A stretch of DNA of 64,000 nucleotides from a virus (IMGVR_UViG_3300031994_000015:94276-158275), one strand, 5' to 3'. Positions 7,901-38,807 are shown, numbered from the stretch's first letter. Notes: generated by a model not told the origin, from the letters alone. Program-made: numbers and translations.

Positions 7901-10900
7901 GAGAGATATTTTGATTTTAATAAAATGTTCTTTATAAGAAATTATGATGATAACACATTTTTAGGATCATATGTATATTTCAAAATAGATAACAATAAAT
8001 GTTATAGTAATAAAATTATAAATAAATACCATGAAATATACACAGAAGCAGGTTTAGAAACTATTGGAAATGCCGAAGATTGGTTAGAAATCATAGAAGA
8101 CTTAAGAAAATATAATATTGGATATATTAATCTAAATGGTATAAGTGGTATAAATAGAATTAAAAAGCATATATATTTACCTCTTAATTCAATTACAAAT
8201 AATGAACATATTGAAATCCAAAATATTTATGACCAAGAAATTAAATATAATATCATTCCTGAGATTAATAATTTTTATAACAGATATACTGAAAAGATAA
8301 ATATCAATAATGAAAATTATCTTAATAATATTTTAATATTCAATATATTCAAGAACAATCAAATTAATAAGAATATATTTAATAGCACAATATTTGGTAA
8401 TGTAAAATTAAGTGCAAACGGTATTATGTTTTCTCATAATGATTTAGATGAGAAAATTTATTTAAAGGGAAAAGCTTTATGGAGTGAAAATATTGATTCA
8501 AAATATTTAGATTTGTATGGTTTTTATATCAACCAAAAAGATTCTCATAGAAAATATCCTTGGAGTTGGGGTTCAAAAATAAAACCTATATTAGGAAATT
8601 TAGAAGCAATACAAATACCAGGACAATTTATATATTATCAAGATTCATTAGGAAATATAATTGGTAGTAATATTAAAATTAATTATAAAAAAGAAAATTT
8701 AGCTCAAATAATTTGTAATAATATTGAAGATTTTACCCATATTGAAGATAAGTTACCAAGTGATTATAAATGGATCAATAATAATGTTCAAAAAATTAAA
8801 TATGAAAAATTTGGAAATTCTGACAATATTACTGTAACTTATAAAACTGGTGAAATAGAAACAAATAAATTTATCTTAAATGTTAAATATATTAAGATTA
8901 ATCCATTAAATGGTCAATATTCAATATTAAATGAAATTACAAATTATGATTTATATAGAATCAATTCTTCAAACAATGATGGCAACTTAGATATTAAATT
9001 ATTATGTACTATAATTAAAATCTCTGTTGTTTATGAAGAAGTTGGTGAAGAAAAAGAAATAACATTAAATGTTTCTGATGCATATTTAAGTCGTTTAGAT
9101 ACGTCAAAAAATATAATTGATAAATTAGATATTATACCTTATGGTTTTGGAAAAATAGGTAATACCAATTATATAATTGGAAAACGATATGATGAATATT
9201 ATGCTATTGATCTAAATAAATTAAAAAATGGAAAATTTGAAGGTATAAAAATATTTTGTAAAGGAAATTCACAATATTTAGATAATAGAATTTCATCAAT
9301 AATAGAAGCTGAACAACCTGGATTATATGTATATAATTATGATTATTATAGAACAAGTACTGAAAATCTTAATTTAGATAGATTAGAATCTTCATTAGAT
9401 GTAAGTAATGATGCAGGAGAATTATTAGTAGATCGTGGTTTGGCAAGATTATACAGAGTTAATTATGATAATAATATTAAATATTTGATATTCTATGAAA
9501 GAGATATTAAATATGCATATGATTTAATGTCTCAATTCTCTGATTGTAATGCCGAAAATTGTATTATTTTAGAAGATATTTATCATGATTTTAAAACTAA
9601 ACAACATGTGAATGAAGGAAATAATAATACAAGAATATTAACAAAAATGTATGATAAATTCAATAATAAAAAATCATTATTACTTAATAAAATTATATAT
9701 AGCAAAACAAATACTGATTTAAATAAAATAGATTTCAATATTTTAGATTCTAAATTTATTAGTCTTAATGATGACGATATAGTTTATGTTATATATCAAT
9801 ATCAAAATCAAGAAGATTTAAATCCAATAATTTATAAATCATACACAAAAATTGAATTAGAAGATGGAGAAAATACAATTAAAGGTATAGTAAATAACTT
9901 AAATACAACACAAAATGGCATTTATAAATATGTTATAACTAATAAATTTAATTATATTAAAAATTACATTTATACATTAACTTGGGAGACTAATATTTAT
10001 GGAGCATCAATAAATTTATTTATTTTGAAAGAAAATTCTTATGAAATTCTTAAATATAAAGATAGTGAATTTTTGATGACTGATGATATAAAATCTATAC
10101 AAATGAGTTTTGTTGTCGAAAATAATGTACAAAATACTTTTATAGATGGATATATTATACCTAAAATATTCTCAAGTAAATTAACAAATAGTTATTCACA
10201 ATTAAAATATATTCCATCATCAGATTCTAATAAATTCATAGAAATCAATATTGATGGTAATAAATATGTTTATGATGATAATACCGATGATGATAAAGTA
10301 AAATTATATAATGATTTCTTTGAAATAGATTATCTTGCTACAAAAAGAGATGAAAATGGAAGAATAAGTGAAGAAAATACTGGTACTGTATATGAGATAG
10401 AAAAATTATTTAATATTGAAAAAAATTATTTGAAATGGTCAAATAACAATCAATTTACTTGTCGAAAAATTATATCTAATACAGATTTGCATAATAACAC
10501 TATTTTAATTACTAATGGTGATGTTTATTATGAATATACACAAGTTAATGATAAAGATATTTTAGCATATTTTGATAGTTTGTCAGAATTTAATAAATAT
10601 AATTTGGTTAATTTGATTAAGTATGATTTCAGTATTAAAACATACATAGATTTTTATGATTGTCATGTTTATAAATATATAATAGATAGTACTCCTATTA
10701 ATGAAGATAATGATTGTATAATTACTGAAAACTTAGAAGAGATTAAATTACCTGATTATTTTGTAGAAGAGAATTATGTAAAAGTAATCAAACAAAAAAT
10801 CAATTTAAAGAAATTCTTTGATTATGACTTCTATTTAATGCATGACTATGATTATTGGTATGGTGTATTTATATCTAAAGAAGTTATATCTAAGAACATT

Positions 10901-11344
10901 AATAATAGTAACTTAAAGATTTCTAAAGATTATAAAGTAATAGAATCTACAATATATCAAGAAAATGATTTCTACGAAAACAACACACCATATGTATTAA
11001 AATTAGTTGGATCTAGTAATGAATTCTTGATTAACCGTATGATGTTTGAAGAAACTAATGGAGTTAACCATTTTGATAATGATAAAATGATAGTGGCTAA
11101 ATTGGAAAACAATAATAAGCTACCTGTCGATATATTTAATTCACCTAAATGGGAAATAACTCCAAAATCAATAGGAATGGATAAAACATTAAAAATCAAT
11201 TCTAATCAAAATATGGCTTTAATATCATTCCCAGAAAATAATAATGTTTATCAAAAAGGTTATTATGATGTCAAAGTAAGATATTCATTAGATAAGAATA
11301 TTCAACACCAATTGCATAAAGATGGAATTATACGTATTGGATAA
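4997..11344 (+). CDS. giant 2115-aa protein, Asn/Ile/Lys/Tyr-rich; function unknown (possibly a large virion or tail-associated protein)
   Basis: Uninterrupted 6.3-kb ORF with no credible competing ORF; no catalytic motif recognised (no DxDGD). Confidence 0.85.
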   Translation: MDFLDNSGHVFSLPSYSEEPIGHEFEENDYIFWLDNNVTSSLSVNNYYSRVINLVIPYDSYENMSFDELVDITISMDSHKFWLLKPTDIQNLVNETDNISNIVHNINAKDNYRFNTLTNDDLYVLTISNNYENSNQWVRSNMAVVPLYILGKAKEEGTWISNILIHIKDKSEDYESVTEDWVSISVGGIFKDENEILTINGQNMGITLPKEMFRAVYQQSFLNDEFNENLYNLKLKEYLINFMNIKGEQGNFRSANNSLKWFGYKDHLVLTKLMKTDNDIKEQYVHDWFNLKTDLIKSFKYFRNSTFVSIKLKENQEIGERYLFNEDKESSFFGEGKPILENLFKKEIPVKVGYDEDQWTYWKPYYDFTFYEMGLKLSCLKYYYETYFLPIHLKVHSATIAHQVFTNDIKFDNKVFNTVRTESIINTEETFENNGNNIEFKRNIVEFDSNNVRYFTHQIHYVDENFNEYKSYNDKENGKTFYKIDDTCLSIPIRFNNDVDSNGLNIPTYFNCVLLLEREGLDNETINQYRLNILNHPINIWYYDINILSKQTKKPLDLSNYEIVFSEMNQFNKSDIISNGLEGLKTYLKTYFAIPVFSKYYDLDNENYNLEFVYTDDGEYIQLYRASLTQQILNKFKNYDSNIINNLFNILDQLSVTKEDEAHNNFKYLHISETPIEYIDKDWYIYIPPISQFNFNPMNTNDIYGEIFIVPKVNIQLKFDQTEIHDFIIKPKTGNSISIKDKIRINYIPLSKVMYESHFNFVQDKTHLDSVYNSFILYPKYINNQDINYFINKKFTLRLLVNNHWYKYDFETKMPDVNLKFGTLKYKYYSTTDNYYSRFSQLLDLTSNSVTFNSFMYHPEFVEVNHINFFKDLDNYIKLNSLKYLSNDGELLKLSNFNRYIDYEYYDEDNKVKKIKIYISKFITDKKFFIYFDTDWLQEDYTLFKLIPAQIGYNLLANRNDDLCILGEERYFDFNKMFFIRNYDDNTFLGSYVYFKIDNNKCYSNKIINKYHEIYTEAGLETIGNAEDWLEIIEDLRKYNIGYINLNGISGINRIKKHIYLPLNSITNNEHIEIQNIYDQEIKYNIIPEINNFYNRYTEKININNENYLNNILIFNIFKNNQINKNIFNSTIFGNVKLSANGIMFSHNDLDEKIYLKGKALWSENIDSKYLDLYGFYINQKDSHRKYPWSWGSKIKPILGNLEAIQIPGQFIYYQDSLGNIIGSNIKINYKKENLAQIICNNIEDFTHIEDKLPSDYKWINNNVQKIKYEKFGNSDNITVTYKTGEIETNKFILNVKYIKINPLNGQYSILNEITNYDLYRINSSNNDGNLDIKLLCTIIKISVVYEEVGEEKEITLNVSDAYLSRLDTSKNIIDKLDIIPYGFGKIGNTNYIIGKRYDEYYAIDLNKLKNGKFEGIKIFCKGNSQYLDNRISSIIEAEQPGLYVYNYDYYRTSTENLNLDRLESSLDVSNDAGELLVDRGLARLYRVNYDNNIKYLIFYERDIKYAYDLMSQFSDCNAENCIILEDIYHDFKTKQHVNEGNNNTRILTKMYDKFNNKKSLLLNKIIYSKTNTDLNKIDFNILDSKFISLNDDDIVYVIYQYQNQEDLNPIIYKSYTKIELEDGENTIKGIVNNLNTTQNGIYKYVITNKFNYIKNYIYTLTWETNIYGASINLFILKENSYEILKYKDSEFLMTDDIKSIQMSFVVENNVQNTFIDGYIIPKIFSSKLTNSYSQLKYIPSSDSNKFIEINIDGNKYVYDDNTDDDKVKLYNDFFEIDYLATKRDENGRISEENTGTVYEIEKLFNIEKNYLKWSNNNQFTCRKIISNTDLHNNTILITNGDVYYEYTQVNDKDILAYFDSLSEFNKYNLVNLIKYDFSIKTYIDFYDCHVYKYIIDSTPINEDNDCIITENLEEIKLPDYFVEENYVKVIKQKINLKKFFDYDFYLMHDYDYWYGVFISKEVISKNINNSNLKISKDYKVIESTIYQENDFYENNTPYVLKLVGSSNEFLINRMMFEETNGVNHFDNDKMIVAKLENNNKLPVDIFNSPKWEITPKSIGMDKTLKINSNQNMALISFPENNNVYQKGYYDVKVRYSLDKNIQHQLHKDGIIRIG

Positions 11345-29627: not shown

Positions 29628-29954
29628 ATGAAATCATTAAATAATTATATAAATGAAGAAAAGAAAACAACTGGAGCTGGTTGTGTTGAAATGGTTAAGA
29701 CTATTCTTGACCAATTAACTAAAGAACATTCTGATTGCAAATACGATAAAGAAAAAGAAGAATGGACAGGTAAAGATGCTGATTTATGGAAAGGTGCAGG
29801 TCAATTCTTATTTGACTATATGCACGAATTAAATCAATCAGACTTTAAGAAAATTGTTGATGCCATGGGTTGGAAGAAATGGATTCCTGATGTAAATGAT
29901 ATTCATCCAGCCGAAATTTCAATGTGTATGTCAATGGAATTAACAGGATTGTAA
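29628..29954 (+). CDS. small tagged protein (MKSLNNYINEEK)
   Basis: 108-aa ORF. Confidence 0.5.
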   Translation: MKSLNNYINEEKKTTGAGCVEMVKTILDQLTKEHSDCKYDKEKEEWTGKDADLWKGAGQFLFDYMHELNQSDFKKIVDAMGWKKWIPDVNDIHPAEISMCMSMELTGL

Positions 29955-29956
29955 TT

Positions 29957-30463
29957 ATGAAATCAATAATAACATATTTATTTGAAAAACAAAATCCTTT
30001 TAATGCTTGGATTATGGTAGGACTTCCTGGTTCAGGTAAGTCAACATATATTAAAGAAGAACTTCCAAAAAGTATTAATATAATTTCACAAGATTATATT
30101 AGACAGGAATTAGGCATAATGAAAGATGATGATCATAAAGCAATTGGTAATCTAGAACAAGAAAAAGAAGTTACAAGAATTTGTTTAGAACGAATTGATA
30201 AAGCAATTAAAGAACGCAAAGATTTTGTCATAGATAATACAAATATAAAAGTAGGTAGAGTTCAAAATTTTTATGATAAGTTAAAGAAAGCTAATGCTAA
30301 TGTACAAATAATCATTATTGATACACCTAAAGAAATTTGTAAAGAACGTCGTAAAGAATACATCTCAGAAAAAGTTATTGATGATATGCAATTAGGTATT
30401 GATAAAGTCAAAGAAACTTTCAAAAATAATGAAGATACAAAAATAATTTCAGATAGATACTAA
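29957..30463 (+). CDS. P-loop polynucleotide kinase (T4 Pnk kinase-domain-like), tagged (MKSIITYLFEKQ)
   Basis: WIMVGLPGSGKST Walker A, QDYIRQ, VIDNTN; start moved to 29957 after the upstream stop. Confidence 0.6.
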   Translation: MKSIITYLFEKQNPFNAWIMVGLPGSGKSTYIKEELPKSINIISQDYIRQELGIMKDDDHKAIGNLEQEKEVTRICLERIDKAIKERKDFVIDNTNIKVGRVQNFYDKLKKANANVQIIIIDTPKEICKERRKEYISEKVIDDMQLGIDKVKETFKNNEDTKIISDRY

Positions 30464-30661
30464 TGTTAGAAGGAATAATTATATTTGGTATAGGTTTTTT
30501 ATTTGGTAAATATACTAATCAAATGATCGATATTTGTAAAGGATTATATTTAAGATATTTTGATAAAGAAAAAACTGATGCATAAACTGTTAGTGTGTTT
30601 TTCATAATATTAAACTTAAGGTTAACTATTTTTGTATATATTTTTTTAAGTTTATGCATTT

Positions 30662-30694
30662 GGGAGGTCATGAAGACCTCCCATTTTTATTTTA
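30662..30694 (+). terminator. Rho-independent terminator (gggaggtc atga gacctccc + atttttatttt)
   Basis: GC-rich 8-bp stem plus T-run. Confidence 0.7.
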
Positions 30695-30796: not shown

Positions 30797-31105
30797 ATGA
30801 TGACAAAGGAATTTAACCTCGAGATGGCAAAGAATGGTGCAGCAATTCAGACAAAGCTCGGTAATCCGGTAAAGTTCAATTGTATCACCAACGATAACAA
30901 GCTTTTCGTTACGGTTTTCAAGCGGAATCGAATTGTAGGAGGTGATCATAAGGCAATTGCTCCTTCTTTCGGTGGAACACAAGATAAGTATTGCCTGAAT
31001 GGCCGAAAGTATGCCGGAACTACTACAATGTTTGACCTCGAGATGGTAGAGCCCTACAACGTTGGTCAGCCTCGTGATGCTAAAGGTCGCTTTACCAAGA
31101 AGTAA
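30797..31105 (+). CDS. hypothetical small protein, GC-rich, basic C-terminus (RDAKGRFTKK)
   Basis: GC-rich codon usage; preceded by a terminator and the motif. Confidence 0.6.
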   Translation: MMTKEFNLEMAKNGAAIQTKLGNPVKFNCITNDNKLFVTVFKRNRIVGGDHKAIAPSFGGTQDKYCLNGRKYAGTTTMFDLEMVEPYNVGQPRDAKGRFTKK

Positions 31106-31172
31106 TTAGAAATTTATCTAACTGGCAAGAGGAATCTGAAAAGAATCTTCTTGCCAATATTTGTGATATATT

Positions 31173-31508
31173 ATGGATGTAAAAGATTATTTGATTGTAT
31201 ATGGTCATAATGTGAGGCGAGGTGGCTCATGTTATAAAGAGACAGAAATTAATTGTGATGATCTTGTAAGGTTCATGCCAATTATTAAAACAATTCATGA
31301 TAATATTGATCAAGCAATGAATTGGATTGGTGGAATTACTTTGGAAAGAACTAAGGATGGTCATTATATTGAACATAATCATCTTTATGAAATGTACCCA
31401 CAGTTTGATCCAAAGCTTCTTGATGAGCTTTCAGAATATCTACCTGATGGAATTACTCATATTGAGTCAATTAAAATTTTTAGTGGACAAAAAATCAAAA
31501 TTATTTAA
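31173..31508 (+). CDS. hypothetical protein
   Basis: 111-aa ORF. Confidence 0.5.
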   Translation: MDVKDYLIVYGHNVRRGGSCYKETEINCDDLVRFMPIIKTIHDNIDQAMNWIGGITLERTKDGHYIEHNHLYEMYPQFDPKLLDELSEYLPDGITHIESIKIFSGQKIKII

Positions 31509-31554
31509 ATTACATAAAAATTTGACTATATTTATAATGTAAAAAATAAACATT

Positions 31555-31755
31555 ATGAAGACAATTTTTACTTATAAAAGTTTTAAGCATAAAGTTTATA
31601 ATTTAGAAGATGAAGGTTTTCGAATTAGTGAAGATATGTCTTTTACACATTCAGCTTTTAATGGATTAGAGATGAAAGGTGGAAATAATGTTTTAGAGAC
31701 AGTAGAAAAGATTAATCAATATATAGATATAATGAATTCAACACCACTTTTTTAA
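31555..31755 (+). CDS. hypothetical protein
   Basis: 66-aa ORF. Confidence 0.4.
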   Translation: MKTIFTYKSFKHKVYNLEDEGFRISEDMSFTHSAFNGLEMKGGNNVLETVEKINQYIDIMNSTPLF

Positions 31756-31756
31756 T

Positions 31757-31984
31757 ATGAATAAATTTGATGATGTTAAACAGTTAGTACATGAACATGA
31801 TGAATTAGTAGCTTTTCATAAGATGTTGTCAGAAAATCCAATGAAGAAATTGGGTATTATACATGAGGGTAGCGATACACCAGGTGTTAATTATACTGAT
31901 TATTCTGATACAGTTAAAGAAGTAGTTCTAAAGAAAGTTCGTGAACGTATTGATGAAATTGAAAAGATTTTTAATAAAAAGTAA
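31757..31984 (+). CDS. hypothetical protein
   Basis: 75-aa ORF. Confidence 0.4.
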   Translation: MNKFDDVKQLVHEHDELVAFHKMLSENPMKKLGIIHEGSDTPGVNYTDYSDTVKEVVLKKVRERIDEIEKIFNKK

Positions 31985-31986
31985 AT

Positions 31987-32529
31987 ATGGCTTGGTATAC
32001 AATTTTATTTTTGACAGTTTTTTTATTGTTTGCTGTTAAATTGATTTTATCCTGGACAGCAGGAGATTTTGAAATGGATGTAGATTTAGATGGTATAGAT
32101 GATTTTGATGTATCTAGTGCATTTTCATTTAAAGGATTAATTCATTTCTTGTTAGGTTTTAGCTCATATCTATTTTTACGTGCTAATATGGCAGGAGTAG
32201 ATAAGATTAATGGAGTTGCACAATTTAGTACTTTAGATTATATGTGGGCAACCGTAATTGGAGTAATTTTATTTTTTGCTTTATGGTGGGGATATAAACT
32301 TGCAATGAAAGCTTCACAAACTCCAAAAAGACCACAAGATTGTATTAATAATTCTAAAGGAAAGATCTATCTTAATCTAGGAAATGGACAATATTCTGTA
32401 GAAGCACATACAGTTGCAGGAACAACTAATGTAACAGCATTTTATTCAGGTGATGAGTTAGAATCTGGAACAGAAGTTACATTAACAAAGGAAGGAAATA
32501 ATATTTTAATAAATACAATCGATGCTTAA
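31987..32529 (+). CDS. NfeD-like (YuaF-type) membrane protein, probable partner of the flotillin
   Basis: Several TM helices in the N-terminal two-thirds and a beta-rich C-terminal ~60 aa; located immediately upstream of an SPFH/flotillin gene, the canonical bacterial nfeD-flotillin arrangement. Confidence 0.45.
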   Translation: MAWYTILFLTVFLLFAVKLILSWTAGDFEMDVDLDGIDDFDVSSAFSFKGLIHFLLGFSSYLFLRANMAGVDKINGVAQFSTLDYMWATVIGVILFFALWWGYKLAMKASQTPKRPQDCINNSKGKIYLNLGNGQYSVEAHTVAGTTNVTAFYSGDELESGTEVTLTKEGNNILINTIDA

Positions 32530-32738
32530 TTTTTTAACCAATAAACAAAAAGGAGTATTAGGTACAATTGCTTTATTAGGAGTTGGAGCAATAATTGCTA
32601 AAGGTCTTTATGATTATTCAAATTATAAAACTTTAAAATGGGTAGAAAAAAGACTTAAACATAATACTTGGGAATATTACGAATAATTTATTGTAAACAT
32701 TTTATTAATTATATTTTTTAACTTTAATTTTATTTTTT

Positions 32739-34823
32739 ATGACTGGAACAATTTTAACATTGTGTTTGATTGGTGGAGGAATCCTATTCCTCGTTCTAAC
32801 AATTTGGGGAATTCTATCAAGGTATCGCCGTTCAGCACCTGATGAACTTTTGGTTGTTTTTGGTAAATCTGGAAAGATCCAAGTACAAGGTGAAGATGGT
32901 AAGACACAAACATTGGTAGTACCAAGTAAGATTATTCAAGGTGGTGGTGCATTTGTATGGCCTATCATTCAGGACTTCAAGAAGATGTCAATGAAGCCTA
33001 TTCAGATTAAGGCGACAGTTGACGGTATTGATTCACAAGCAATTCAATTGCACTTGCCTGTAGTATTAACAACTGCAATTTCTCGAGATAAAGAAATTCA
33101 ACAGAATGCAGCAACTCGTTTCTTGAGTGCTAATCCACAAGAAATTCAATCTCAGATTCAAGAAATTTTGATTGGTGAAACACGTGCTATCATGGCAACT
33201 ATGTTGATTGAGGAAATTAACGCCGACCGTGATAAGTTCTTAACTAAGGTACGTACTAACCTTGAGCAAGAGTTGACAAAGATTGGTTATGATGTTACTA
33301 ACATTAACATTTCAGAAATTACCGATGACGCCAACTATATCAAGAACATGGGTCAAAAAGCTACAACCCGTAAGCAAGCTGAAGCTGAGGCAGATATTGC
33401 TGAGCAGAGGAAGCAAGGTAATGTAAAGATTGCTAACACAAAGAAGGAAGAGGAAATTGCTGTTGCTGCAGCTGAGAAGGAGAAGCAAGTTACAGTTAAT
33501 CAAACTCGTCAGGAGCAAGAAGTTAAGGTAGCAGGTATTGAAAGAGACAAGCAAATTCAATTGGCTGAAGCTGAAAAGGAACGTGAATCTGGTATTGCCG
33601 ACCAGGAAGCTGAGAAGGCAGCACGTATTGCCGAAGCTCAAGCACTTGCTGAATCTAAGAAAGCTGAAGCTAAAGCAAAGCAGATTGCTAATGTATCTGC
33701 AGCTGATGCAGAAGCAGCATCTAAGCAAGCTGAAGCTGATGCTAAGAAGGTAGCTGCAGTTGCTGCTCGTAAGGCAGAAGCTGAATCTAATAAAGCTAAG
33801 TCAGAAGCTGAACAGACTAAGGCAATTGCTACTGCACAAGCTGATGCAGAAGCTACTGAGAATGAGCAGGAAGCTAAGAAGCAAACTCGTATTGCACAAG
33901 CTAACCAGGTTAAGGAAGCTGAAATTGTAAAAGCAACTCAGGAAAAGGAATCTAAAGCCGCTGAGTATGAATCTGAGAAACGTAAGCGTAAAGCAGAAGC
34001 TGATAAGAAGGCAGGTGTTGCCGAACAGATGGCAAAGATTGAAGTAGCACAAGCTACTGCTAAGGCTGGTCAAGCTGAAGCTGATGCTAAGAAGGTAAAG
34101 GAAACTGCTATGGTTGAAGCCGAGATGTCAGTTGCAAAAACTAAGCAGGAACGTCAGTTAGAAGTTAATAAGGCACAAGCTAAAGCCGCTGAGGAGCAAT
34201 TGAATGCTACCGAAATCGTACCAGCACAGAAAGCTAAGGAGAAGGCAGTTATTGAGGCCGAAGCTATTAAGCGTAAAGCCGAACTTGAGGCAGAAGCGTT
34301 GAAGGTAAAGATCCTTCGTGAAGCTGAAGCTGAAGCTCAGAAGACCCAAATGAAGTTGGAAGCTGAAGCTGAAGGTAATCGTAAGAAGTTGCTTGCCGAA
34401 GCTGAAGGTGCAGAAGCTATGGCACTTGCTAAAGCTAAAGGTATTCAACAGGAAGCACTTGCACCAGCTATGGCATTTGAAAGAATGATTCAAGCTGCTG
34501 GTTCACCAGAGATGGCAGTTCAGTGGAAGATGGTTGATCAGTACAAAGGTATCGCTGAAGCTCAAGCTCATGTTCTTGAACACGTACAACTTGGTAATGT
34601 TACTGTTTACGGTGATAAGAACACAGGTGCTGACTTCGCTAAGAGCTTTGTTCAGAACTTCGCTCCAGCTCTCGATATGATCAATGGTGGAGTAAAGGAT
34701 CAGTTTAAGAATCTTTTCGGATTGAAAGGTGAAAAGAAAGAACTCCCATCACCAGAAGGAACCGGAGATGACACCAAAACCAAAGGTAAGGACAAGGGAG
34801 GAGACTTTGATGATGTTAAGTAA
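32739..34823 (+). CDS. flotillin-like SPFH/Band-7 protein with a long Glu/Ala-rich coiled coil
   Basis: N-terminal TM, SPFH core (LLVVFGKSGKIQVQGEDGK...IQGGGAFVWPIIQDFKKMSMKPIQI), then ~400 aa of AEAEA-type flotillin repeats; GC-rich codons. Confidence 0.75.
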   Translation: MTGTILTLCLIGGGILFLVLTIWGILSRYRRSAPDELLVVFGKSGKIQVQGEDGKTQTLVVPSKIIQGGGAFVWPIIQDFKKMSMKPIQIKATVDGIDSQAIQLHLPVVLTTAISRDKEIQQNAATRFLSANPQEIQSQIQEILIGETRAIMATMLIEEINADRDKFLTKVRTNLEQELTKIGYDVTNINISEITDDANYIKNMGQKATTRKQAEAEADIAEQRKQGNVKIANTKKEEEIAVAAAEKEKQVTVNQTRQEQEVKVAGIERDKQIQLAEAEKERESGIADQEAEKAARIAEAQALAESKKAEAKAKQIANVSAADAEAASKQAEADAKKVAAVAARKAEAESNKAKSEAEQTKAIATAQADAEATENEQEAKKQTRIAQANQVKEAEIVKATQEKESKAAEYESEKRKRKAEADKKAGVAEQMAKIEVAQATAKAGQAEADAKKVKETAMVEAEMSVAKTKQERQLEVNKAQAKAAEEQLNATEIVPAQKAKEKAVIEAEAIKRKAELEAEALKVKILREAEAEAQKTQMKLEAEAEGNRKKLLAEAEGAEAMALAKAKGIQQEALAPAMAFERMIQAAGSPEMAVQWKMVDQYKGIAEAQAHVLEHVQLGNVTVYGDKNTGADFAKSFVQNFAPALDMINGGVKDQFKNLFGLKGEKKELPSPEGTGDDTKTKGKDKGGDFDDVK

Positions 34824-34847
34824 GAAATAATTCACAACTAATATTTA

Positions 34848-34886
34848 AGAGGAATTGATTTAAATCAATTCCTCTTTTTTATTTTT
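34848..34886 (+). terminator. Rho-independent terminator 1 (agaggaattgatttaaatcaattcctct + T6)
   Basis: Perfect stem plus T-run. Confidence 0.7.
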
Positions 34887-34894
34887 AAATTTAA

Positions 34895-34923
34895 GGACTG
34901 AATGCAAAATTCAGTCTTTTTTT
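34895..34923 (+). terminator. Rho-independent terminator 2 (ggactgaatgcaaaattcagtc + T7), in tandem with terminator 1
   Basis: Second hairpin 10 nt downstream. Confidence 0.65.
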
Positions 34924-34981
34924 GGCTTTAAATAGAATATAATTTTTATTTTTATATATAACAAAAAAAGTATGTAATAAT

Positions 34982-35617
34982 ATGAATTACGAAGGAAAAT
35001 ATGGAACTCAAGAACCAGAAGAGAATAATAAAGATATATTAGAAAATCTTTTTATTCAATCTGATACTCCAGATTTAGTTGATACTGATGATACTTTACA
35101 AACTCCTTTGTTAGTTATAAATCTTGAAGAAGTAGATAAGAAAACTAATGAAAGAGCTAAGAAGATTGTTGAAAGATTATCAGATTATTATTTTGACAAA
35201 AGATATGTAGAGCAACATCCTTATATACCTAATAAAATTGCTCAAGAAGTGGATAATATCAGACGTCTTTTAAAAATGCTTGCAGTCAATGAAAAAGCTC
35301 AAGATACATTAATTACTTCTATTACTATTAATGCAGGTAAAGGAACATTATATGGTTCATTAACTTCATTACAAAATTCTATGCTTCAAATGCAATCACA
35401 ATTAAACCAATTAACCGCAAATCTTGAAAATATATTTAAAGAAATGCAAGCTAATTGTGAAGAAACATTTGAAGAGAAGCAAAAAGATGATATTGAAAAT
35501 GAAGATGGATCTAAAGTTGTTATGGGTTCACGTGACTTTATTAAACAAATTGATGCTATGATAAATAGTGGAGAAACAAATAATAACGAAATAATAAAAA
35601 CAGGAACTGATCAATAA
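34982..35617 (+). CDS. hypothetical coiled-coil protein
   Basis: 211-aa ORF upstream of ugd. Confidence 0.5.
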   Translation: MNYEGKYGTQEPEENNKDILENLFIQSDTPDLVDTDDTLQTPLLVINLEEVDKKTNERAKKIVERLSDYYFDKRYVEQHPYIPNKIAQEVDNIRRLLKMLAVNEKAQDTLITSITINAGKGTLYGSLTSLQNSMLQMQSQLNQLTANLENIFKEMQANCEETFEEKQKDDIENEDGSKVVMGSRDFIKQIDAMINSGETNNNEIIKTGTDQ

Positions 35618-35618
35618 T

Positions 35619-36953
35619 ATGAATATATCTATTGTTGGTACTGGTTATGTTGGCTTAGTAACTGGTACTTGTTTTGCCGAAATGGGACATAATGTACATT
35701 GTATAGATATCAATAAAGAAAAGATTTATAAATTAAATAATGGTATTATACCTATTTATGAGCCAGGATTAGAAGAATTAGTAAAAAAGAATATACAAGC
35801 TGAAAAATTATTTTTTGATGATGATTATAAATCTATAGAATATGCAGATGCTGTATTTTCAGCTGTTGGTACTCCACCGGATGAAGATGGTTCAGCTGAT
35901 TTACAATATGTATTAGCTGTAGCAAAAGAGTTTGCTAAGTATATTAAGAAACATTCTTTAATTATTACTAAATCAACAGTACCAGTTGGAACAGCAGAAA
36001 AGGTTCGTAAAGTTGTACAAGATACATTGAAAGAATTGAATAAAGAAGTAGAGTTTGAAGTTGTTTCAAACCCAGAATTTTTGAAAGAAGGTTCAGCTAT
36101 TGAAGACTTTATGAATCCTGATAGAATAGTTATAGGTTGCGATATGGAATATTCTAAGATGATTATGCAATCTATTTATAAAAAATTCCCAGACGAAAAA
36201 TTAGTATTTACAACTATTCCATCAGCTGAAATGATAAAATATGCTGCTAATTCTATGTTAGCTGTTCGTATTTCATTTATGAATGATATCGCTAATCTTT
36301 GTGATAAAGTTGGTGCTAATGTAGAAGATGTAGCTAAAGGTATAGGTATGGATTCTCGTATAGGACCAAAATTCTTACAAGCTGGTTGTGGATATGGTGG
36401 TTCATGTTTTCCTAAAGATGTAAAAGCACTTATTAAAACTGGAGAGCAAAATAATATAGATATGAAAGTTATTAAAGCAGCTGAAGCTACTAATAATTCA
36501 CAAAAACATATCCTTTATGATAAATTATATAAAGCATCTTCAAGAGTTGATTATCAAATAAAGAATATTACAATATTGGGTACTGCATTTAAACCTAATA
36601 CCGATGATATGAGAGAAGCTACTTCAGTTGTATGTTTAAATGATTTATTGAATGATAATCAAAAATTAGGACCATTTGATAAGATTAAGATATATGATCC
36701 AATAGCATTAGGTGAAGCTAAAAGAATAATAGGTGAATCAAATGAGAAGATTGAATATTATAATGAATTAGATAAAGCTATTATAGATGCAGATGCAATA
36801 ATTATTGTTACTGAATGGAAACAAATTAAAGAAATGTCTTTAGAGGTTGCAAAAAAATTAATGAGAGGTAACATAATTATAGATGGAAGAAATATATTTA
36901 ATAGAAAAGAATTAGAGAAATTAGAATTTATATATGAAGCTATAGGAAAATAA
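35619..36953 (+). CDS. ugd: UDP-glucose 6-dehydrogenase family (UDP-glucose/GDP-mannose dehydrogenase)
   Basis: N-terminal GTGYVGLVTGTCFAEMGH Rossmann motif and catalytic GCGYGGSCFPKD motif. Confidence 0.85.
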   Translation: MNISIVGTGYVGLVTGTCFAEMGHNVHCIDINKEKIYKLNNGIIPIYEPGLEELVKKNIQAEKLFFDDDYKSIEYADAVFSAVGTPPDEDGSADLQYVLAVAKEFAKYIKKHSLIITKSTVPVGTAEKVRKVVQDTLKELNKEVEFEVVSNPEFLKEGSAIEDFMNPDRIVIGCDMEYSKMIMQSIYKKFPDEKLVFTTIPSAEMIKYAANSMLAVRISFMNDIANLCDKVGANVEDVAKGIGMDSRIGPKFLQAGCGYGGSCFPKDVKALIKTGEQNNIDMKVIKAAEATNNSQKHILYDKLYKASSRVDYQIKNITILGTAFKPNTDDMREATSVVCLNDLLNDNQKLGPFDKIKIYDPIALGEAKRIIGESNEKIEYYNELDKAIIDADAIIIVTEWKQIKEMSLEVAKKLMRGNIIIDGRNIFNRKELEKLEFIYEAIGK

Positions 36954-36954
36954 A

Positions 36955-36977
36955 GGAGCAATTATGCTCCTTTTTTC
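36955..36977 (+). terminator. Rho-independent terminator (ggagcaattatgctcc + T7)
   Basis: Hairpin immediately after the ugd stop. Confidence 0.65.
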
Positions 36978-37106: not shown

Positions 37107-38807
37107 ATGACAAACAAACGTTGCTTGGTTTATGAAACTTTGGGAAAGGTAACTAATCTTCAAGTATCTGAATCAGCTGCTCCTAAAGGCATGATGCGTT
37201 TAGAAGGTGTGTTTGGTGTATGTGGAGTTAAGAACCAAAATAACCGTATCTATGACAAAGAGAACTATGGAAAGATGGTTGAAGCTTTGCAAGAGGTTAT
37301 TAAGGAAGATAATGGTTGTCCTGGTGAATTGGAACATCCTAATTCAATGAATATTAATCTTGAGAATGTTTCTCACAAGATTGAAAAGATTCAAATGAAT
37401 GAAGACGGTACTATCACCGGTACAATTCTTTTATTAAATACTCCTAAAGGTCAGATTGCCCAAGCTATTGTAGAAGGTGGTCTTCCTTTATATATATCAT
37501 CACGTGGTGCTGGTACAATTACAAATGAAAGTGGTATATCTCATGTTACATTATCTACTATCAAGACTTATGACTTGGTAGGTACTCCAGGTTTTAGTCA
37601 AGCTAAATTAAATCTTAAAGAAAATCAAACTCTTGAATGTCTTAATGAATCAGTAGATGATGGTAACGTTATATATGCTATTGTCGAAGGAGATGATGAT
37701 CAACCATCAGACGATAAAGATAAAGACACTGATAAGGGTGAAGGTGACGCAGATAATAAAGATAATAAAACTGACGACACAAAAGATAACAAAGACGATA
37801 ACAAAAATAACGATAATGAAAAAGTTGATATGAAAGATTTGAAAGAAGCTATTGAAAAGCTTACTGATAAAGTAACTTCACTTGAAGCTGAACTTCATGT
37901 AGCTAAAGAATCTTTAGATAACCAAAAACCTGTCAACTATGCTGCTATTGAAAAATGGGTAAATGAAGAATTTGCTCCTGAATTCAAGAAGACAATTGAA
38001 ACAGCATTACAAGAAAAGCTTGATGGTATGGATGTAATGGAATCTGTAGAAGAAATTATCGATAACAAGATTAATGAATCTATTGAAACTATTTCTGAAG
38101 GCATCCAAAATTGGGTAGTTGAAGAATTTGCTCCAGAAGTTCAAAACTGGGTAGTTGAAGAATTTGCTCCAGAAGTTCAAAACTGGGTATGTGAAGAATT
38201 TGCTCCAGAAGTTCAAAACTGGGTATGTGAAGAATTTGCTCCAGAAGTTCAAAACTGGGTTGTTGAAGAATTCGCTCCTGAAGTACAAAACTGGATTACT
38301 GAAGAATATTCACCAGAAGTACAAAATTGGATTACAGAAGAATTTGCTCCAGTTATTGATAAGTGGGTAAATGAAGAATTTGCTCCAGAACATATGGAAA
38401 ATGTTGAAAAGAAAGTTAATGAAAATGTTTCTGCTTTCTTAGCTGAAAATAAGGCTGGTCGTCTTGAAGAAATAGATTCATTACTTGAAACTATTGGTTC
38501 TAACAATACTCCATTAGAGAATATTGTTAAAGAAAATCAAGAACAAACTAAGTGGAAAGGTGTTTATGTAGTTGAAAGCATGCCTGCTCAATACAAACCA
38601 TCTTGGGAATTACTTGATGAAGCTCGTCAAGAAGAAATCGTTAGAAGTTCTAAGCTTTATGATTTCACAAAAGCTGGTGTTCTTGAATCATTCTGGGCTA
38701 ATGTAGAATTTAACAAGAAGGAAGAAAAGATTGAAGAAAATCTTAACCCAATTCAAAAGTATCATAATACAATAGCTGAACAAATGAGACGTATTGGTAA
38801 ATGGTAA
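37107..38807 (+). CDS. putative prohead protease and scaffold fusion (T4 gp21/gp22-like position): N-terminal globular domain, poly-acidic linker, coiled coil and 12-aa tandem repeats
   Basis: Immediately upstream of the major capsid gene; Asp/Lys/Asn-rich linker; eight copies of QNWVVEEFAPEV; N-terminal domain contains GELEHP and a Gly-rich core. The protease assignment is inference. Confidence 0.5.
   Translation: MTNKRCLVYETLGKVTNLQVSESAAPKGMMRLEGVFGVCGVKNQNNRIYDKENYGKMVEALQEVIKEDNGCPGELEHPNSMNINLENVSHKIEKIQMNEDGTITGTILLLNTPKGQIAQAIVEGGLPLYISSRGAGTITNESGISHVTLSTIKTYDLVGTPGFSQAKLNLKENQTLECLNESVDDGNVIYAIVEGDDDQPSDDKDKDTDKGEGDADNKDNKTDDTKDNKDDNKNNDNEKVDMKDLKEAIEKLTDKVTSLEAELHVAKESLDNQKPVNYAAIEKWVNEEFAPEFKKTIETALQEKLDGMDVMESVEEIIDNKINESIETISEGIQNWVVEEFAPEVQNWVVEEFAPEVQNWVCEEFAPEVQNWVCEEFAPEVQNWVVEEFAPEVQNWITEEYSPEVQNWITEEFAPVIDKWVNEEFAPEHMENVEKKVNENVSAFLAENKAGRLEEIDSLLETIGSNNTPLENIVKENQEQTKWKGVYVVESMPAQYKPSWELLDEARQEEIVRSSKLYDFTKAGVLESFWANVEFNKKEEKIEENLNPIQKYHNTIAEQMRRIGKW
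38105..38392 (+). repeat. eight in-frame tandem copies of a 36-nt unit (caaaactgggtagttgaagaatttgctccagaagtt), plus one degenerate copy at 37950-37985
   Basis: Read directly; copies diverge towards the 3' end. Confidence 0.9.

What the first reader, a model, noticed from the sequence alone, without database searches (positions are those of the whole stretch)
31987..34923. Phage-encoded NfeD-like and flotillin (SPFH) gene pair
Gene 31987 encodes a multi-TM protein with a beta-rich C-terminal domain, like the short NfeD/YuaF proteins. It is followed by a 694-aa flotillin with a TM anchor, an SPFH core and ~400 aa of Glu/Ala flotillin repeats. This is the canonical bacterial nfeD-floT operon layout. 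Flotillins organise membrane microdomains, and a virus-encoded copy is unusual. It is GC-rich, so highly expressed, and is bracketed by two tandem terminators. Possible roles include scaffolding a membrane assembly or lysis platform, remodelling host membrane signalling, or superinfection exclusion.
Basis: partly seen in the sequence, partly recalled or inferred. Interest (0 to 1): 0.68.

Follow-up and report, generated by a model that had tools for sequence, protein, structure and literature searches.

The report
Huge-phage NfeD–flotillin membrane operon
A very large gut phage carries a two-gene membrane-scaffold unit, a flotillin plus its small NfeD-like partner, that matches a gene pair native to Bacteroidales bacteria and that the phage lineage has kept and lengthened; this suggests the phage reorganises its host's membrane during infection, but nothing about function has been tested.

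Summary
ORF 31987-32529 (180 aa) has three predicted TM helices and a C-terminal five-stranded OB-fold. ORF 32739-34823 (694 aa) has a TM anchor, an SPFH/Band_7 domain (E 2.6e-21) and about 350 aa of Ala/Glu/Lys-rich helix, and its closest solved relatives are flotillin-1 and -2.

The same pair is chromosomal in Bacteroidales (Leyella, Prevotella, Xylanibacter, Tannerella), so the module most likely came from that host lineage. Phage csAssE-Sib acquired its copy separately. The phage flotillin is under purifying selection, is about 100-160 aa longer than the Bacteroidales ones, and has host-like codon bias exceeding that of the capsid genes.

Verdict: a correctly identified nfeD-flotillin operon and a new member of a known kind. 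Its role in infection is inferred only.

The parts
30661..30683 (+). Terminator-like hairpin (9 bp stem, 6 GC pairs, T tail) marking the likely 5' boundary of the transcription unit that holds the module
30797..31105 (+). 102-aa ORF, first gene after the upstream terminator. No family match. A homolog is a conserved upstream neighbour of the pair in the huge-phage clade, and it shares the elevated GC3 (0.45 here, 0.23-0.45 in relatives). Possible third module member; function unknown.
31173..31984 (+). Three small ORFs (31173-31508, 31555-31755, 31757-31984) in the same terminator-bounded unit. No family match; only patchily conserved in relatives.
31987..32529 (+). NfeD-like membrane protein, 180 aa. 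TM1 at nt 31993-32058. Invariant acidic loop GDxDxDxDxDG, then SFKGxxHF, at nt 32059-32127 (8 D/E, 0 K/R). TM2 at 32128-32184. TM3 at 32230-32313. C-terminal five-stranded OB-fold at 32347-32517.
32522..32686 (+). 54-aa single-TM ORF between the two genes, overlapping the NfeD-like stop by 8 nt. Conserved as a 51-aa ORF (55% identity) in the 460-kb relative. Absent from more distant phage versions and from bacterial versions of the module.
32739..34823 (+). Flotillin-family SPFH protein, 694 aa. TM anchor at nt 32748-32816. SPFH/Band_7 at 32841-33410. Ala/Glu/Lys-rich helical region at 33411-34448. Conserved C-terminal domain at 34449-34718. Lys/Gly/Asp-rich tail at 34719-34820.
34847..34919 (+). 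Two tandem terminator-like hairpins (34847-34876, 13 bp stem; 34893-34919, 11 bp stem), each followed by a T run. Likely 3' end of the unit.

Best explanation
This is an nfeD-flotillin membrane-scaffold operon homologous to one native to Bacteroidales chromosomes. It was most likely captured from that host lineage and is carried as a stably conserved module by a clade of AT-rich huge phages (related contigs up to 460 kb).

Shown:
- The 694-aa protein is a flotillin-type SPFH protein.
- The 180-aa protein is a 3-TM protein with a C-terminal OB-fold. It belongs to a family whose divergent members reach the NfeD profile.
- The two genes are adjacent in every phage and bacterial locus examined.
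- The flotillin is under purifying selection.

Inferred mechanism:
- The flotillin inserts into the host cytoplasmic membrane through its N-terminal helix, with the SRYRR flank and SPFH domain on the cytoplasmic side.
- It oligomerises through its long Ala/Glu helices and conserved C-terminal domain into a closed SPFH cage, of the kind solved for flotillin-1/2 and HflK/C.
- The NfeD-like protein is the membrane-embedded partner held at that cage through its OB domain.
- The phage makes its own abundant supply of this scaffold to keep the host membrane organised, fluid and intact through a long huge-phage infection, when host gene expression is probably compromised.
- The helical region is about 100-130 aa longer than in the bacterial homologs, which would give a taller or larger cage.

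The confidence of 0.55 is for the whole statement. The identity and evolutionary parts alone would rate about 0.9, and the proposed role in infection about 0.4.
For: Identity of the flotillin:
- Band_7 E 2.6e-21.
- Flotillin-2 and -1 are the best solved relatives.
- 25% identity to E. coli YqiK, E 4e-21.
- 34% identity, E 1e-84, to the Leyella stercorea chromosomal flotillin.

Identity of the partner:
- Model pLDDT 81, with 3 TM helices and 5 strands.
- The best viral structure hit is a full-length 'NfeD-like C-terminal domain-containing protein', E 8.7e-13.
- 3 of 52 divergent members hit Pfam NfeD, best E 2.7e-6.
- The family profile's top PDB hit is YuaF across the whole OB domain, E 0.047. 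hhalign gives 59% probability, E 9e-5.

Pairing:
- The NfeD-like gene lies directly upstream on the same strand in 47 of 47 phage or viral loci, with gaps of 2-681 nt.
- The same holds in every Bacteroidales locus that extended past the NfeD-like gene.

Host-lineage homology:
- All 12 cellular relatives are Bacteroidales.
- In the two loci whose flanks were scanned, the neighbours are ordinary genes: beta-galactosidase and an ISL3 transposase in L013, a permease and a sulfatase in L009.
- The phage clade is sister to the Bacteroidales flotillins in a neighbour-joining tree.

Selection and likely expression:
- Flotillin dN/dS is 0.10-0.19.
- GC3 is 0.30 against about 0.12 for neighbours and 0.20 for capsid and sheath genes. 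AAG is 75% and CAG 40%. The bias is reproduced in relatives L005 and L007 and is present in the SPFH part as well as the coil.

Cage precedent:
- Flotillin-1/2 form a 44-subunit closed barrel whose wall helices span 186 aa of A/G-E repeats. HflK/C form a 24-mer cage enclosing FtsH (PMC11260169).
- B. subtilis flotillins regulate membrane fluidity and interact with NfeD proteins (PMC8581546 and references cited there).
Against: - No expression, localisation or phenotype data exist, so the function is entirely inferred.
- The window NfeD-like protein itself has no Pfam NfeD hit at E < 0.1, and neither do its 29 closest relatives.
- The flotillin monomer model is unreliable (pLDDT 51), so cage formation and cage size rest on analogy.
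- The flotillin scores 122 bits against the 700-bit FloT equivalog cutoff, and it lacks a Pfam Flot (PF15975) hit.
- The direction of transfer (host to phage) is inferred from a crude neighbour-joining tree and from the chromosomal context of the bacterial copies. It is not proven.
- Codon bias could reflect constraints other than expression level.
Confidence: 0.55

Rival explanations
1. The same proteins are used offensively. The phage cage encloses and sequesters specific host membrane proteins, or co-assembles with the host's own flotillin as a poison subunit. Candidate targets would be an FtsH-type protease, membrane-acting abortive-infection effectors, or receptors and transporters used by competing phages. 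The result would be anti-defence or superinfection exclusion.
For: - HflK/C cages enclose FtsH (PMC11260169).
- The likely host lineage has its own homologous pair, so hetero-assembly is conceivable.
- The NfeD-like partner evolves 2-5 times faster than the flotillin: dN 0.16-0.71 against 0.08-0.22, and 32% against 68% identity in the csAssE-Sib/Leyella comparison. That pattern fits an interface under conflict.
Against: - No match to any known defence or anti-defence model (PADLOC).
- Phage and host flotillins are only 34-42% identical, so co-assembly is uncertain.
- Fast evolution of a small membrane protein can equally reflect relaxed constraint.
- dS is near saturation, so the ratios are rough.
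Confidence: 0.2
2. The module is a platform for a late membrane-linked step of the phage's own cycle, such as timing or localising lysis, or anchoring virion assembly.
For: - The unit lies immediately upstream of the UDP-glucose dehydrogenase, prohead protease, major capsid, sheath and tube genes.
- A 54-aa single-TM ORF sits inside the module, with a very weak resemblance to the TM end of an Rz-like spanin (phrog_9841, E 0.018).
Against: - The motif TTATTTTTAWTAAAT precedes the protease, capsid and sheath genes (8 hits against 1.3 expected) but is absent upstream of the NfeD-like and flotillin genes.
- The module is separated from the structural genes by tandem terminators.
- In csAssE-Sib the pair sits among replication genes.
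- The spanin hit is not significant, and the small ORF is missing from distant versions of the module.
Confidence: 0.12
3. The upstream protein is not an NfeD relative. It would be an unrelated 3-TM membrane protein with a generic OB-fold that independently became a flotillin partner in Bacteroidales.
For: - No Pfam NfeD or YqiJ hit for the window protein or its close relatives.
- hhalign against E. coli YqiJ gives nothing.
- Foldseek against the PDB prefers ribosomal and proteasomal OB-folds.
- The acidic DxDxDxD loop and the SFKGxxHF motif are conserved family features. From memory, they are not features of classical NfeD descriptions.
Against: - 3 of 52 family members do hit PF01957, best E 2.7e-6.
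- YuaF is the single best PDB sequence hit of the family profile, aligned across the whole domain.
- The architecture and gene order are the same as yuaF-floT and yqiJ-yqiK.
Confidence: 0.1
4. The pair is a recently acquired passenger with no role in the phage.
For: The flotillin has atypical, host-like codon usage for this genome.
Against: - The pair is present, in the same order, across a deep clade (flotillin 67-88% identical, partner 36-78%) and in further phage groups at 46-49% and about 36% identity.
- dN/dS is 0.10-0.19.
- The co-located NfeD-like gene has fully phage-like codon usage (GC3 0.13). The flotillin's bias is therefore maintained rather than residual.
Confidence: 0.03

Closest known systems
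Native Bacteroidales nfeD-like/flotillin gene pair (e.g. Leyella stercorea NZ_JAHQUY010000020, Xylanibacter muris NZ_JABKKF010000001); uncharacterised
   Same: - Same two families in the same order and orientation.
- The NfeD-like protein (170-173 aa) shares the acidic loop, the SFKGxxHF motif, three hydrophobic segments and the C-terminal domain (27-36% identity).
- The flotillin shares the N-terminal anchor with SRYR(K/R), the SPFH domain and the C-terminal domain (34% identity, E 1e-84).
   Different: - The bacterial flotillins are 517-547 aa. The window's is 694 aa, with about 100 extra residues in the Ala/Glu helices (window residues 262-395), a 13-residue insertion in the SPFH domain (residues 50-62) and a charged tail.
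- The huge-phage NfeD-like protein has an extra 10-15-residue segment between TM2 and TM3.
- The phage version has one to three small ORFs inserted between the genes.
Bacillus subtilis yuaF (nfeD2)-floT (yuaG) operon
   Same: - Short NfeD type: N-terminal TM helices plus a C-terminal OB-fold, with no protease domain, encoded directly upstream of a flotillin that has an Ala/Glu-rich helical region.
   Different: - Sequence similarity is marginal (E 0.047).
- The flotillin scores 122 bits against the 700-bit FloT equivalog cutoff.
- FloT is 509 aa (from memory) against 694 aa here.
- The B. subtilis operon is cellular and, from memory, belongs to the sigma-W stress regulon.
Escherichia coli yqiJ-yqiK
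   Same: Same operon layout: a membrane protein with a C-terminal OB-type domain upstream of a 553-aa flotillin-family inner-membrane protein. YqiK aligns with the phage flotillin at 25% identity, E 4e-21.
   Different: YqiJ (DUF1449) shows no detectable sequence relationship to the phage NfeD-like family (hhalign probability < 1%).
Flotillin genes annotated in deposited phage genomes (phage csAssE-Sib OR575929; Vibrio phage KIT04 LC487410)
   Same: - Phage-borne flotillin-family genes.
- csAssE-Sib also has the NfeD-like gene directly upstream, annotated only as 'transmembrane protein'.
   Different: - The csAssE-Sib flotillin is 68-69% identical to Prevotellaceae flotillins and nests among them, so it is a separate and more recent capture. 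It sits among replication genes.
- KIT04's 473-aa flotillin is a distinct lineage (28% identity), and no NfeD-family partner was identified next to it. The gene directly upstream is an 82-aa hypothetical protein.
- No publication on any of them was found.
Eukaryotic flotillin-1/flotillin-2 complex (PDB 9bq2, 9l3g) and bacterial HflK/C cage
   Same: The flotillins are the best solved sequence relatives (E 9e-21), with an SPFH domain followed by A/G-E repeat helices. They provide the structural model of a closed, membrane-attached cage (PMC11260169).
   Different: - The eukaryotic proteins attach by hairpin and acylation rather than a TM helix, and they have no NfeD partner.
- Their wall helices span 186 aa. 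Here the helical region is about 350-390 aa.
- Oligomeric state was not testable here.

Membership tests
SPFH / Band 7 superfamily (Pfam PF01145) | SPFH domain matching the family profile above the curated threshold | tested here: met
   76.9 bits against a cutoff of 23.6, E 2.6e-21, residues 35-224, covering profile positions 6-175 of 176
Flotillin subfamily (FloT / YqiK / flotillin-1,2) | Closer to flotillins than to stomatin, prohibitin or HflK/C | tested here: met
   All PDB sequence hits at E <= 1e-3 are flotillin-1 or -2. The only NCBIfam hit is the FloT model. YqiK aligns at E 4e-21.
Flotillin subfamily (FloT / YqiK / flotillin-1,2) | N-terminal membrane anchor followed by SPFH, then a long Ala/Glu-rich helical 'flotillin' region | tested here: met
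   Hydrophobic residues 4-26 then SRYRR. Residues 225-570 are 43% Ala+Glu. Predicted helical from 198 to 659, but from a low-confidence model.
Flotillin subfamily (FloT / YqiK / flotillin-1,2) | FloT equivalog score (NCBIfam NF058507) and Pfam Flot domain (PF15975) | tested here: not met
   122 bits against a cutoff of 700. No PF15975 hit in the window protein, although the Xylanibacter homolog just passes (29.1 against 27). It is therefore a flotillin-family protein but not a FloT orthologue.
Flotillin subfamily (FloT / YqiK / flotillin-1,2) | Assembly into a closed, membrane-attached oligomeric cage | not testable with these tools
   Only a monomer could be modelled, and that model has pLDDT 51.
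NfeD family (Pfam PF01957, short YuaF/PH0471 type) | Match to the NfeD C-terminal domain profile | tested here: inconclusive
   The window protein and its 29 close relatives have no hit at E < 0.1. Of 52 divergent family members, 3 hit PF01957 (best E 2.7e-6). The family profile against the PDB puts YuaF on top at E 0.047. hhalign gives 59% probability.
NfeD family (Pfam PF01957, short YuaF/PH0471 type) | C-terminal five-stranded OB-fold beta-barrel | tested here: met
NfeD family (Pfam PF01957, short YuaF/PH0471 type) | N-terminal transmembrane helices; no ClpP-type protease domain in the short form | tested here: met
   Three helices at 3-24, 48-66 and 82-109. At 180 aa there is no room for a protease domain, and none was hit.
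NfeD family (Pfam PF01957, short YuaF/PH0471 type) | Encoded in an operon with an SPFH-family gene | tested here: met
   Adjacent on the same strand in 47 of 47 phage or viral loci and in the Bacteroidales loci.
NfeD family (Pfam PF01957, short YuaF/PH0471 type) | Physical interaction of the OB domain with the SPFH partner | not testable with these tools
   No complex prediction or experiment was available.
YqiJ / DUF1449 | Sequence similarity to E. coli YqiJ | tested here: not met
   hhalign probability 0.2% and 0.4%. No Pfam YqiJ hit.
Known anti-phage defence systems (PADLOC-DB) | Match to any defence-system protein model | tested here: not met
   No hit for the NfeD-like protein, the 54-aa ORF, the flotillin or the downstream 211-aa ORF.

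The most novel reading that the evidence does not exclude
The huge-phage flotillin, with roughly twice the wall-helix length of solved flotillins, builds an enlarged virus-specific SPFH cage on the host inner membrane, together with a fast-evolving NfeD-like adaptor. That cage would act as a dedicated viral membrane compartment. It could enclose host membrane proteins to disarm them, or anchor the phage's own replication, assembly or lysis machinery. If so, this would be the first virus-built SPFH microdomain, and a natural experiment on what bacterial flotillin cages actually do.
Probability: 0.2. Interest if true: 0.75.

Novelty: new member of a known kind. Interest (0 to 1): 0.5.

Why it matters
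The function of bacterial flotillins and their NfeD partners is still debated. A virus that keeps this pair is strong indirect evidence that the scaffold does something that matters within the time frame of a single infection. The evidence here is conservation across a deep and abundant clade of gut huge phages, purifying selection, codon bias exceeding that of the capsid genes, and independent capture of related copies by other phages.

The analysis also defines an unmodelled NfeD-like subfamily, marked by an acidic DxDxDxD loop and an SFKGxxHF motif and comprising about 431 clusters at 50% identity. That subfamily is shared by Bacteroidales and their phages. Its distribution supports a Bacteroidales (probably Prevotellaceae-like) host for this uncultivated phage lineage.

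Tried and rejected
- Megablast of 31000-36000 against 50,697 phage records gave no match. The phage is not a deposited one.
- PADLOC gave no hits.
- Single-sequence and close-family profile searches of the 180-aa protein against Pfam, NCBIfam, PHROGs and PDB found nothing meaningful. The recurrent weak Big_3_5 hit (E 0.006, below threshold) was dismissed as beta-strand noise.
- hhalign against E. coli YqiJ gave nothing.
- The AFDB50 Foldseek library was not available.
- Foldseek against the PDB did not separate NfeD from other OB-folds.
It was re-run without that row.
- The search for related loci with the very divergent alignment A3 failed for lack of a conserved stretch. It was re-run with A2.
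- The flotillin monomer model was too poor (pLDDT 51) for fold comparison or helix-length measurement.
- GenBank hit MT836799 for the NfeD-like protein is a contig-end fragment next to bacterial genes such as a MurA-like ORF, and gave no useful context.
- Sigma-70 promoter scanning was no better than shuffles (38 against 33.9). A Bacteroidetes-type TTTG...TAnnTTTG search gave only two hits, neither near the module.
- I considered that the high GC simply reflects Ala/Glu content. I rejected that as a complete explanation because GC3 is also raised, in the SPFH part too.
- I considered residual host codon signature. I rejected it because the adjacent NfeD-like gene is fully phage-like, and the bias persists across relatives whose synonymous sites are near saturation (dS about 0.7-1.9).
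- Literature searches found no study of a phage flotillin or NfeD.
Full report
**1. What is in the sequence**

Three + strand ORFs occupy the finding:
- 31987-32529 (180 aa)
- 32739-34823 (694 aa)

They lie in a window that is 28% GC. The window also encodes a prohead protease (37107), major capsid protein (38929), tail sheath (40886) and tail tube (44283).

The capsid protein is 33-40% identical to those of a 462-kb uncultured phage, Sphingomonas phage PAU, Tenacibaculum jumbo phages and the Prevotella Lak megaphages. Exact or near relatives of the 180-aa protein sit on contigs of 362, 457 and 461 kb. The window is therefore part of an uncultivated huge phage. Megablast finds no deposited phage like it.

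**2. The 694-aa protein is a flotillin**

- Pfam Band_7 covers residues 35-224 at 76.9 bits against a cutoff of 23.6 (E 2.6e-21).
- The only NCBIfam hit is the FloT model, but at 122 bits against a 700-bit equivalog cutoff.
- All solved-structure sequence hits at E <= 1e-3 are flotillin-2 or flotillin-1.
- E. coli YqiK aligns at 25% identity, E 4e-21.
- The N-terminus is a 23-residue hydrophobic segment followed by SRYRR.
- Residues 225-570 are 43% Ala+Glu plus 54 Lys.
- A conserved C-terminal domain (about residues 571-660) aligns well with the bacterial homologs.

The AlphaFold monomer model is poor (pLDDT 51). I use only its secondary structure, which is helical from 198 to 659.

**3. The 180-aa protein is NfeD-like, by converging but individually modest evidence**

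Direct sequence tests fail. There is no Pfam, NCBIfam or PHROG match for it or its 29 close relatives, and no PDB sequence hit.

A model built on 29 homologs is good (pLDDT 81). It has three TM helices and a five-stranded beta domain at residues 123-177.

Structure comparisons give mixed resolution:
- Foldseek against the PDB does not separate NfeD from other OB-folds (3cp0 at rank 26).
- Foldseek against viral models gives a single strong full-length hit. It is a protein UniProt names 'NfeD-like C-terminal domain-containing protein' (E 8.7e-13).

An exhaustive profile search found 431 clusters of the family. Among 52 divergent full-length members:
- Three hit Pfam NfeD (best E 2.7e-6).
- Their joint profile puts YuaF as the top PDB hit across the whole domain (E 0.047).
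- hhalign gives 59% probability, E 9e-5.

E. coli YqiJ shows no similarity.

The fold is certainly OB. The short-NfeD architecture is met. Family membership is probable through transitive homology, but it is not established for this sequence alone.

The family has its own hallmarks: an invariant acidic loop (GDxDxDxDxDG; 8 acidic and no basic residues here) and an SFKGxxHF motif at the start of TM2. The positive-inside rule (4 K/R just after TM3) puts the OB domain, and probably the acidic loop, in the cytoplasm. This is inference.

**4. The pairing is invariant and shared with the likely host lineage**

The NfeD-like gene is directly upstream of the flotillin on the same strand in 47 of 47 phage or viral loci. 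These loci are:
- the window
- 42 IMG/VR contigs of 9-435 kb
- phage csAssE-Sib
- three metagenomic contigs

A scan of one genome per prokaryotic species found 12 relatives of the NfeD-like protein. All are in Bacteroidales: Leyella stercorea, Prevotella, Xylanibacter muris, Tannerella, Dysgonomonadaceae, Symbiothrix and Porphyromonadaceae. Wherever the locus extends far enough, a 517-547-aa Band_7 flotillin follows. In the two loci whose flanks were scanned, the neighbours are ordinary genes: beta-galactosidase and an ISL3 transposase in L013, a permease and a sulfatase in L009. The Leyella flotillin is 34% identical to the window's (E 1e-84).

In a neighbour-joining tree:
- The huge-phage flotillins form a clade sister to the Bacteroidales ones.
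- The csAssE-Sib flotillin nests within Prevotellaceae (68-69% identity), which indicates an independent and more recent capture.
- The flotillin of Vibrio phage KIT04 is a separate lineage.

The tree is crude and the direction of transfer is inferred.

**5. How the phage version differs from the bacterial one**

- It is 100-160 aa longer. Most of the extra length lies in the Ala/Glu helices (window residues 262-395), with a 13-residue insertion in the SPFH domain and a charged tail.
- One to three small ORFs have been inserted between the genes in the huge-phage clade. The 54-aa single-TM ORF is conserved in the 460-kb relative.
- The two genes evolve at very different rates. Flotillin dN/dS is 0.10-0.19, with 72-88% amino-acid identity among clade members. 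The NfeD-like partner has dN/dS 0.13-1.05, with 36-78% identity in the same genome pairs (dS is near saturation, so the ratios are rough).

**6. Composition and transcription signals**

The flotillin gene is 42% GC. Much of this is Ala/Glu coding (GC1 0.60). GC3 is also raised, at 0.30, against about 0.12 in neighbouring genes and 0.20 in the capsid and sheath genes. The gene uses AAG 75%, CAG 40% and no ATA codons.

The bias has these properties:
- It is present in the SPFH domain as well as the coil.
- It recurs in relatives L005 and L007, and more weakly in L008.
- It points toward Bacteroidales codon usage.
- It is absent from the adjacent NfeD-like gene (GC3 0.13).

It therefore looks like a maintained property of the flotillin. 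That is compatible with selection for efficient translation, but expression itself is not shown.

Terminator-like hairpins bound a unit of about 4.2 kb:
- 30661-30683 upstream
- a tandem pair at 34847-34876 and 34893-34919 downstream

The motif TTATTTTTAWTAAAT precedes the protease, capsid and sheath genes (8 matches against 1.3 expected). It is not found before the NfeD-like or flotillin genes. This suggests, weakly, a regulatory class different from that of the structural genes.

**7. Most likely mechanism**

Solved SPFH assemblies provide the analogy (PMC11260169):
- Flotillin-1/2 form a 44-subunit closed barrel with 186-residue A/G-E wall helices.
- HflK/C form a 24-mer cage around FtsH.

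B. subtilis flotillins have a reported role in membrane fluidity and interplay with NfeD proteins (PMC8581546 and references therein).

On that basis I propose the following. The phage flotillin anchors in the host inner membrane and assembles into a cage, with the NfeD-like protein as its membrane-embedded partner. The phage supplies this scaffold in quantity to keep the membrane functional through a long infection.

The identity and evolutionary claims are shown. Cage formation, partner binding, expression level and the benefit to the phage are inferred.

The rivals cannot be excluded:
- sequestration of host proteins or poisoning of the host flotillin
- a lysis or assembly platform
- a non-NfeD OB-fold partner

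The 'useless passenger' reading is contradicted by the conservation data.

**8. Novelty**

Flotillin-family genes are already annotated in a few deposited phages: 6 of 50,697 records match, including csAssE-Sib and KIT04. I found no paper that discusses them, and huge-phage surveys and reviews do not mention SPFH, flotillin or NfeD.

The proteins belong to known families and the operon layout is canonical, so this is a new member of a known kind. The following appear to be undescribed:
- its setting in a huge phage
- its prevalence in gut phage metagenomes
- the enlarged helical region
- the fast-evolving partner
- the Bacteroidales-specific NfeD-like subfamily

Noticed in passing
window 30797-31105 (+): 102-aa ORFan at the head of the terminator-bounded unit. 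It is the strongest compositional outlier in the region (GC 0.43, GC3 0.45, AAG 92%, CAG 67%). Homologs (36-62% identity) sit upstream of the NfeD-like/flotillin pair in eight relatives, directly adjacent in L052 and L007, and also show raised GC3 (0.23-0.45). There is no family or annotation match, and only 23 homolog clusters exist, all metagenomic.
   Followed up: partly
window 3193, 37019, 38834, 40819, 57129 (+); also 10588, 21387, 55974 (-) with 1 mismatch: The 15-nt motif TTATTTTTAWTAAAT occurs 8 times against 1.3 expected by chance. Exact copies lie 40-95 nt upstream of the prohead protease, major capsid, tail sheath and two other genes, often followed by a TATAAT-like element. It is a candidate late or structural-gene promoter of this phage lineage.
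   Followed up: partly
window 38106-38357 (+), within the prohead protease gene 37107-38807: Seven to eight tandem 12-residue repeats (QNWVxEEFAPEV) in the C-terminal half of the prohead protease/scaffold-like protein. They produce a spurious Pfam 'Trp_leader1' hit.
   Followed up: no
window 35619-36953 (+): A complete UDP-glucose/GDP-mannose dehydrogenase (all three Pfam domains, E 1e-67 to 1e-26) sits between the flotillin unit and the prohead protease. It has its own terminator at 36952-36973 and is probably an auxiliary gene acting on host surface-sugar metabolism. It is absent at this position in the 460-kb relative (L005/L006).
   Followed up: no
window 32522-32686 (+): The 54-aa single-TM ORF inside the module gives a weak, non-significant hit to the N-terminal end of an Rz-like spanin family (phrog_9841, E 0.018). 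The 460-kb relative has this ORF plus two further small ORFs (54 and 45 aa) at the same place.
   Followed up: partly
window 4997-11344 (+): A 2115-aa ORF with very low GC (0.22; GC3 0.13), the largest gene in the window. Not examined.
   Followed up: no
window 27914-29146 and 29924-30463 (+): A nucleotidyltransferase-fold protein (NTP_transf_2 / Pol-beta-like) and an AAA_33 / polynucleotide-kinase-like P-loop kinase lie upstream of the module. The kinase is a conserved upstream neighbour in relatives (72-87% identity in L005, L023, L026 and L028). A PNKP-like gene directly precedes the pair in L008.
   Followed up: no
L009 4517-4648 (Leyella stercorea, between the nfeD-like and flotillin genes): The bacterial intergenic spacer contains three tandem copies of GATGGTGTGGTGTTGAG-like sequence. 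The phage versions have AT-rich spacers or inserted small ORFs instead.
   Followed up: no
L030-L059 (IMG/VR, mostly sample 3300045988): About 30 viral contigs of 9-270 kb and 37-40% GC carry a nearly identical 653-686-aa flotillin (46-49% identical to the window's), with a 172-173-aa NfeD-like gene 12-15 nt upstream. This is a second abundant phage group with the same module. Its phage identity and host were not checked.
   Followed up: no
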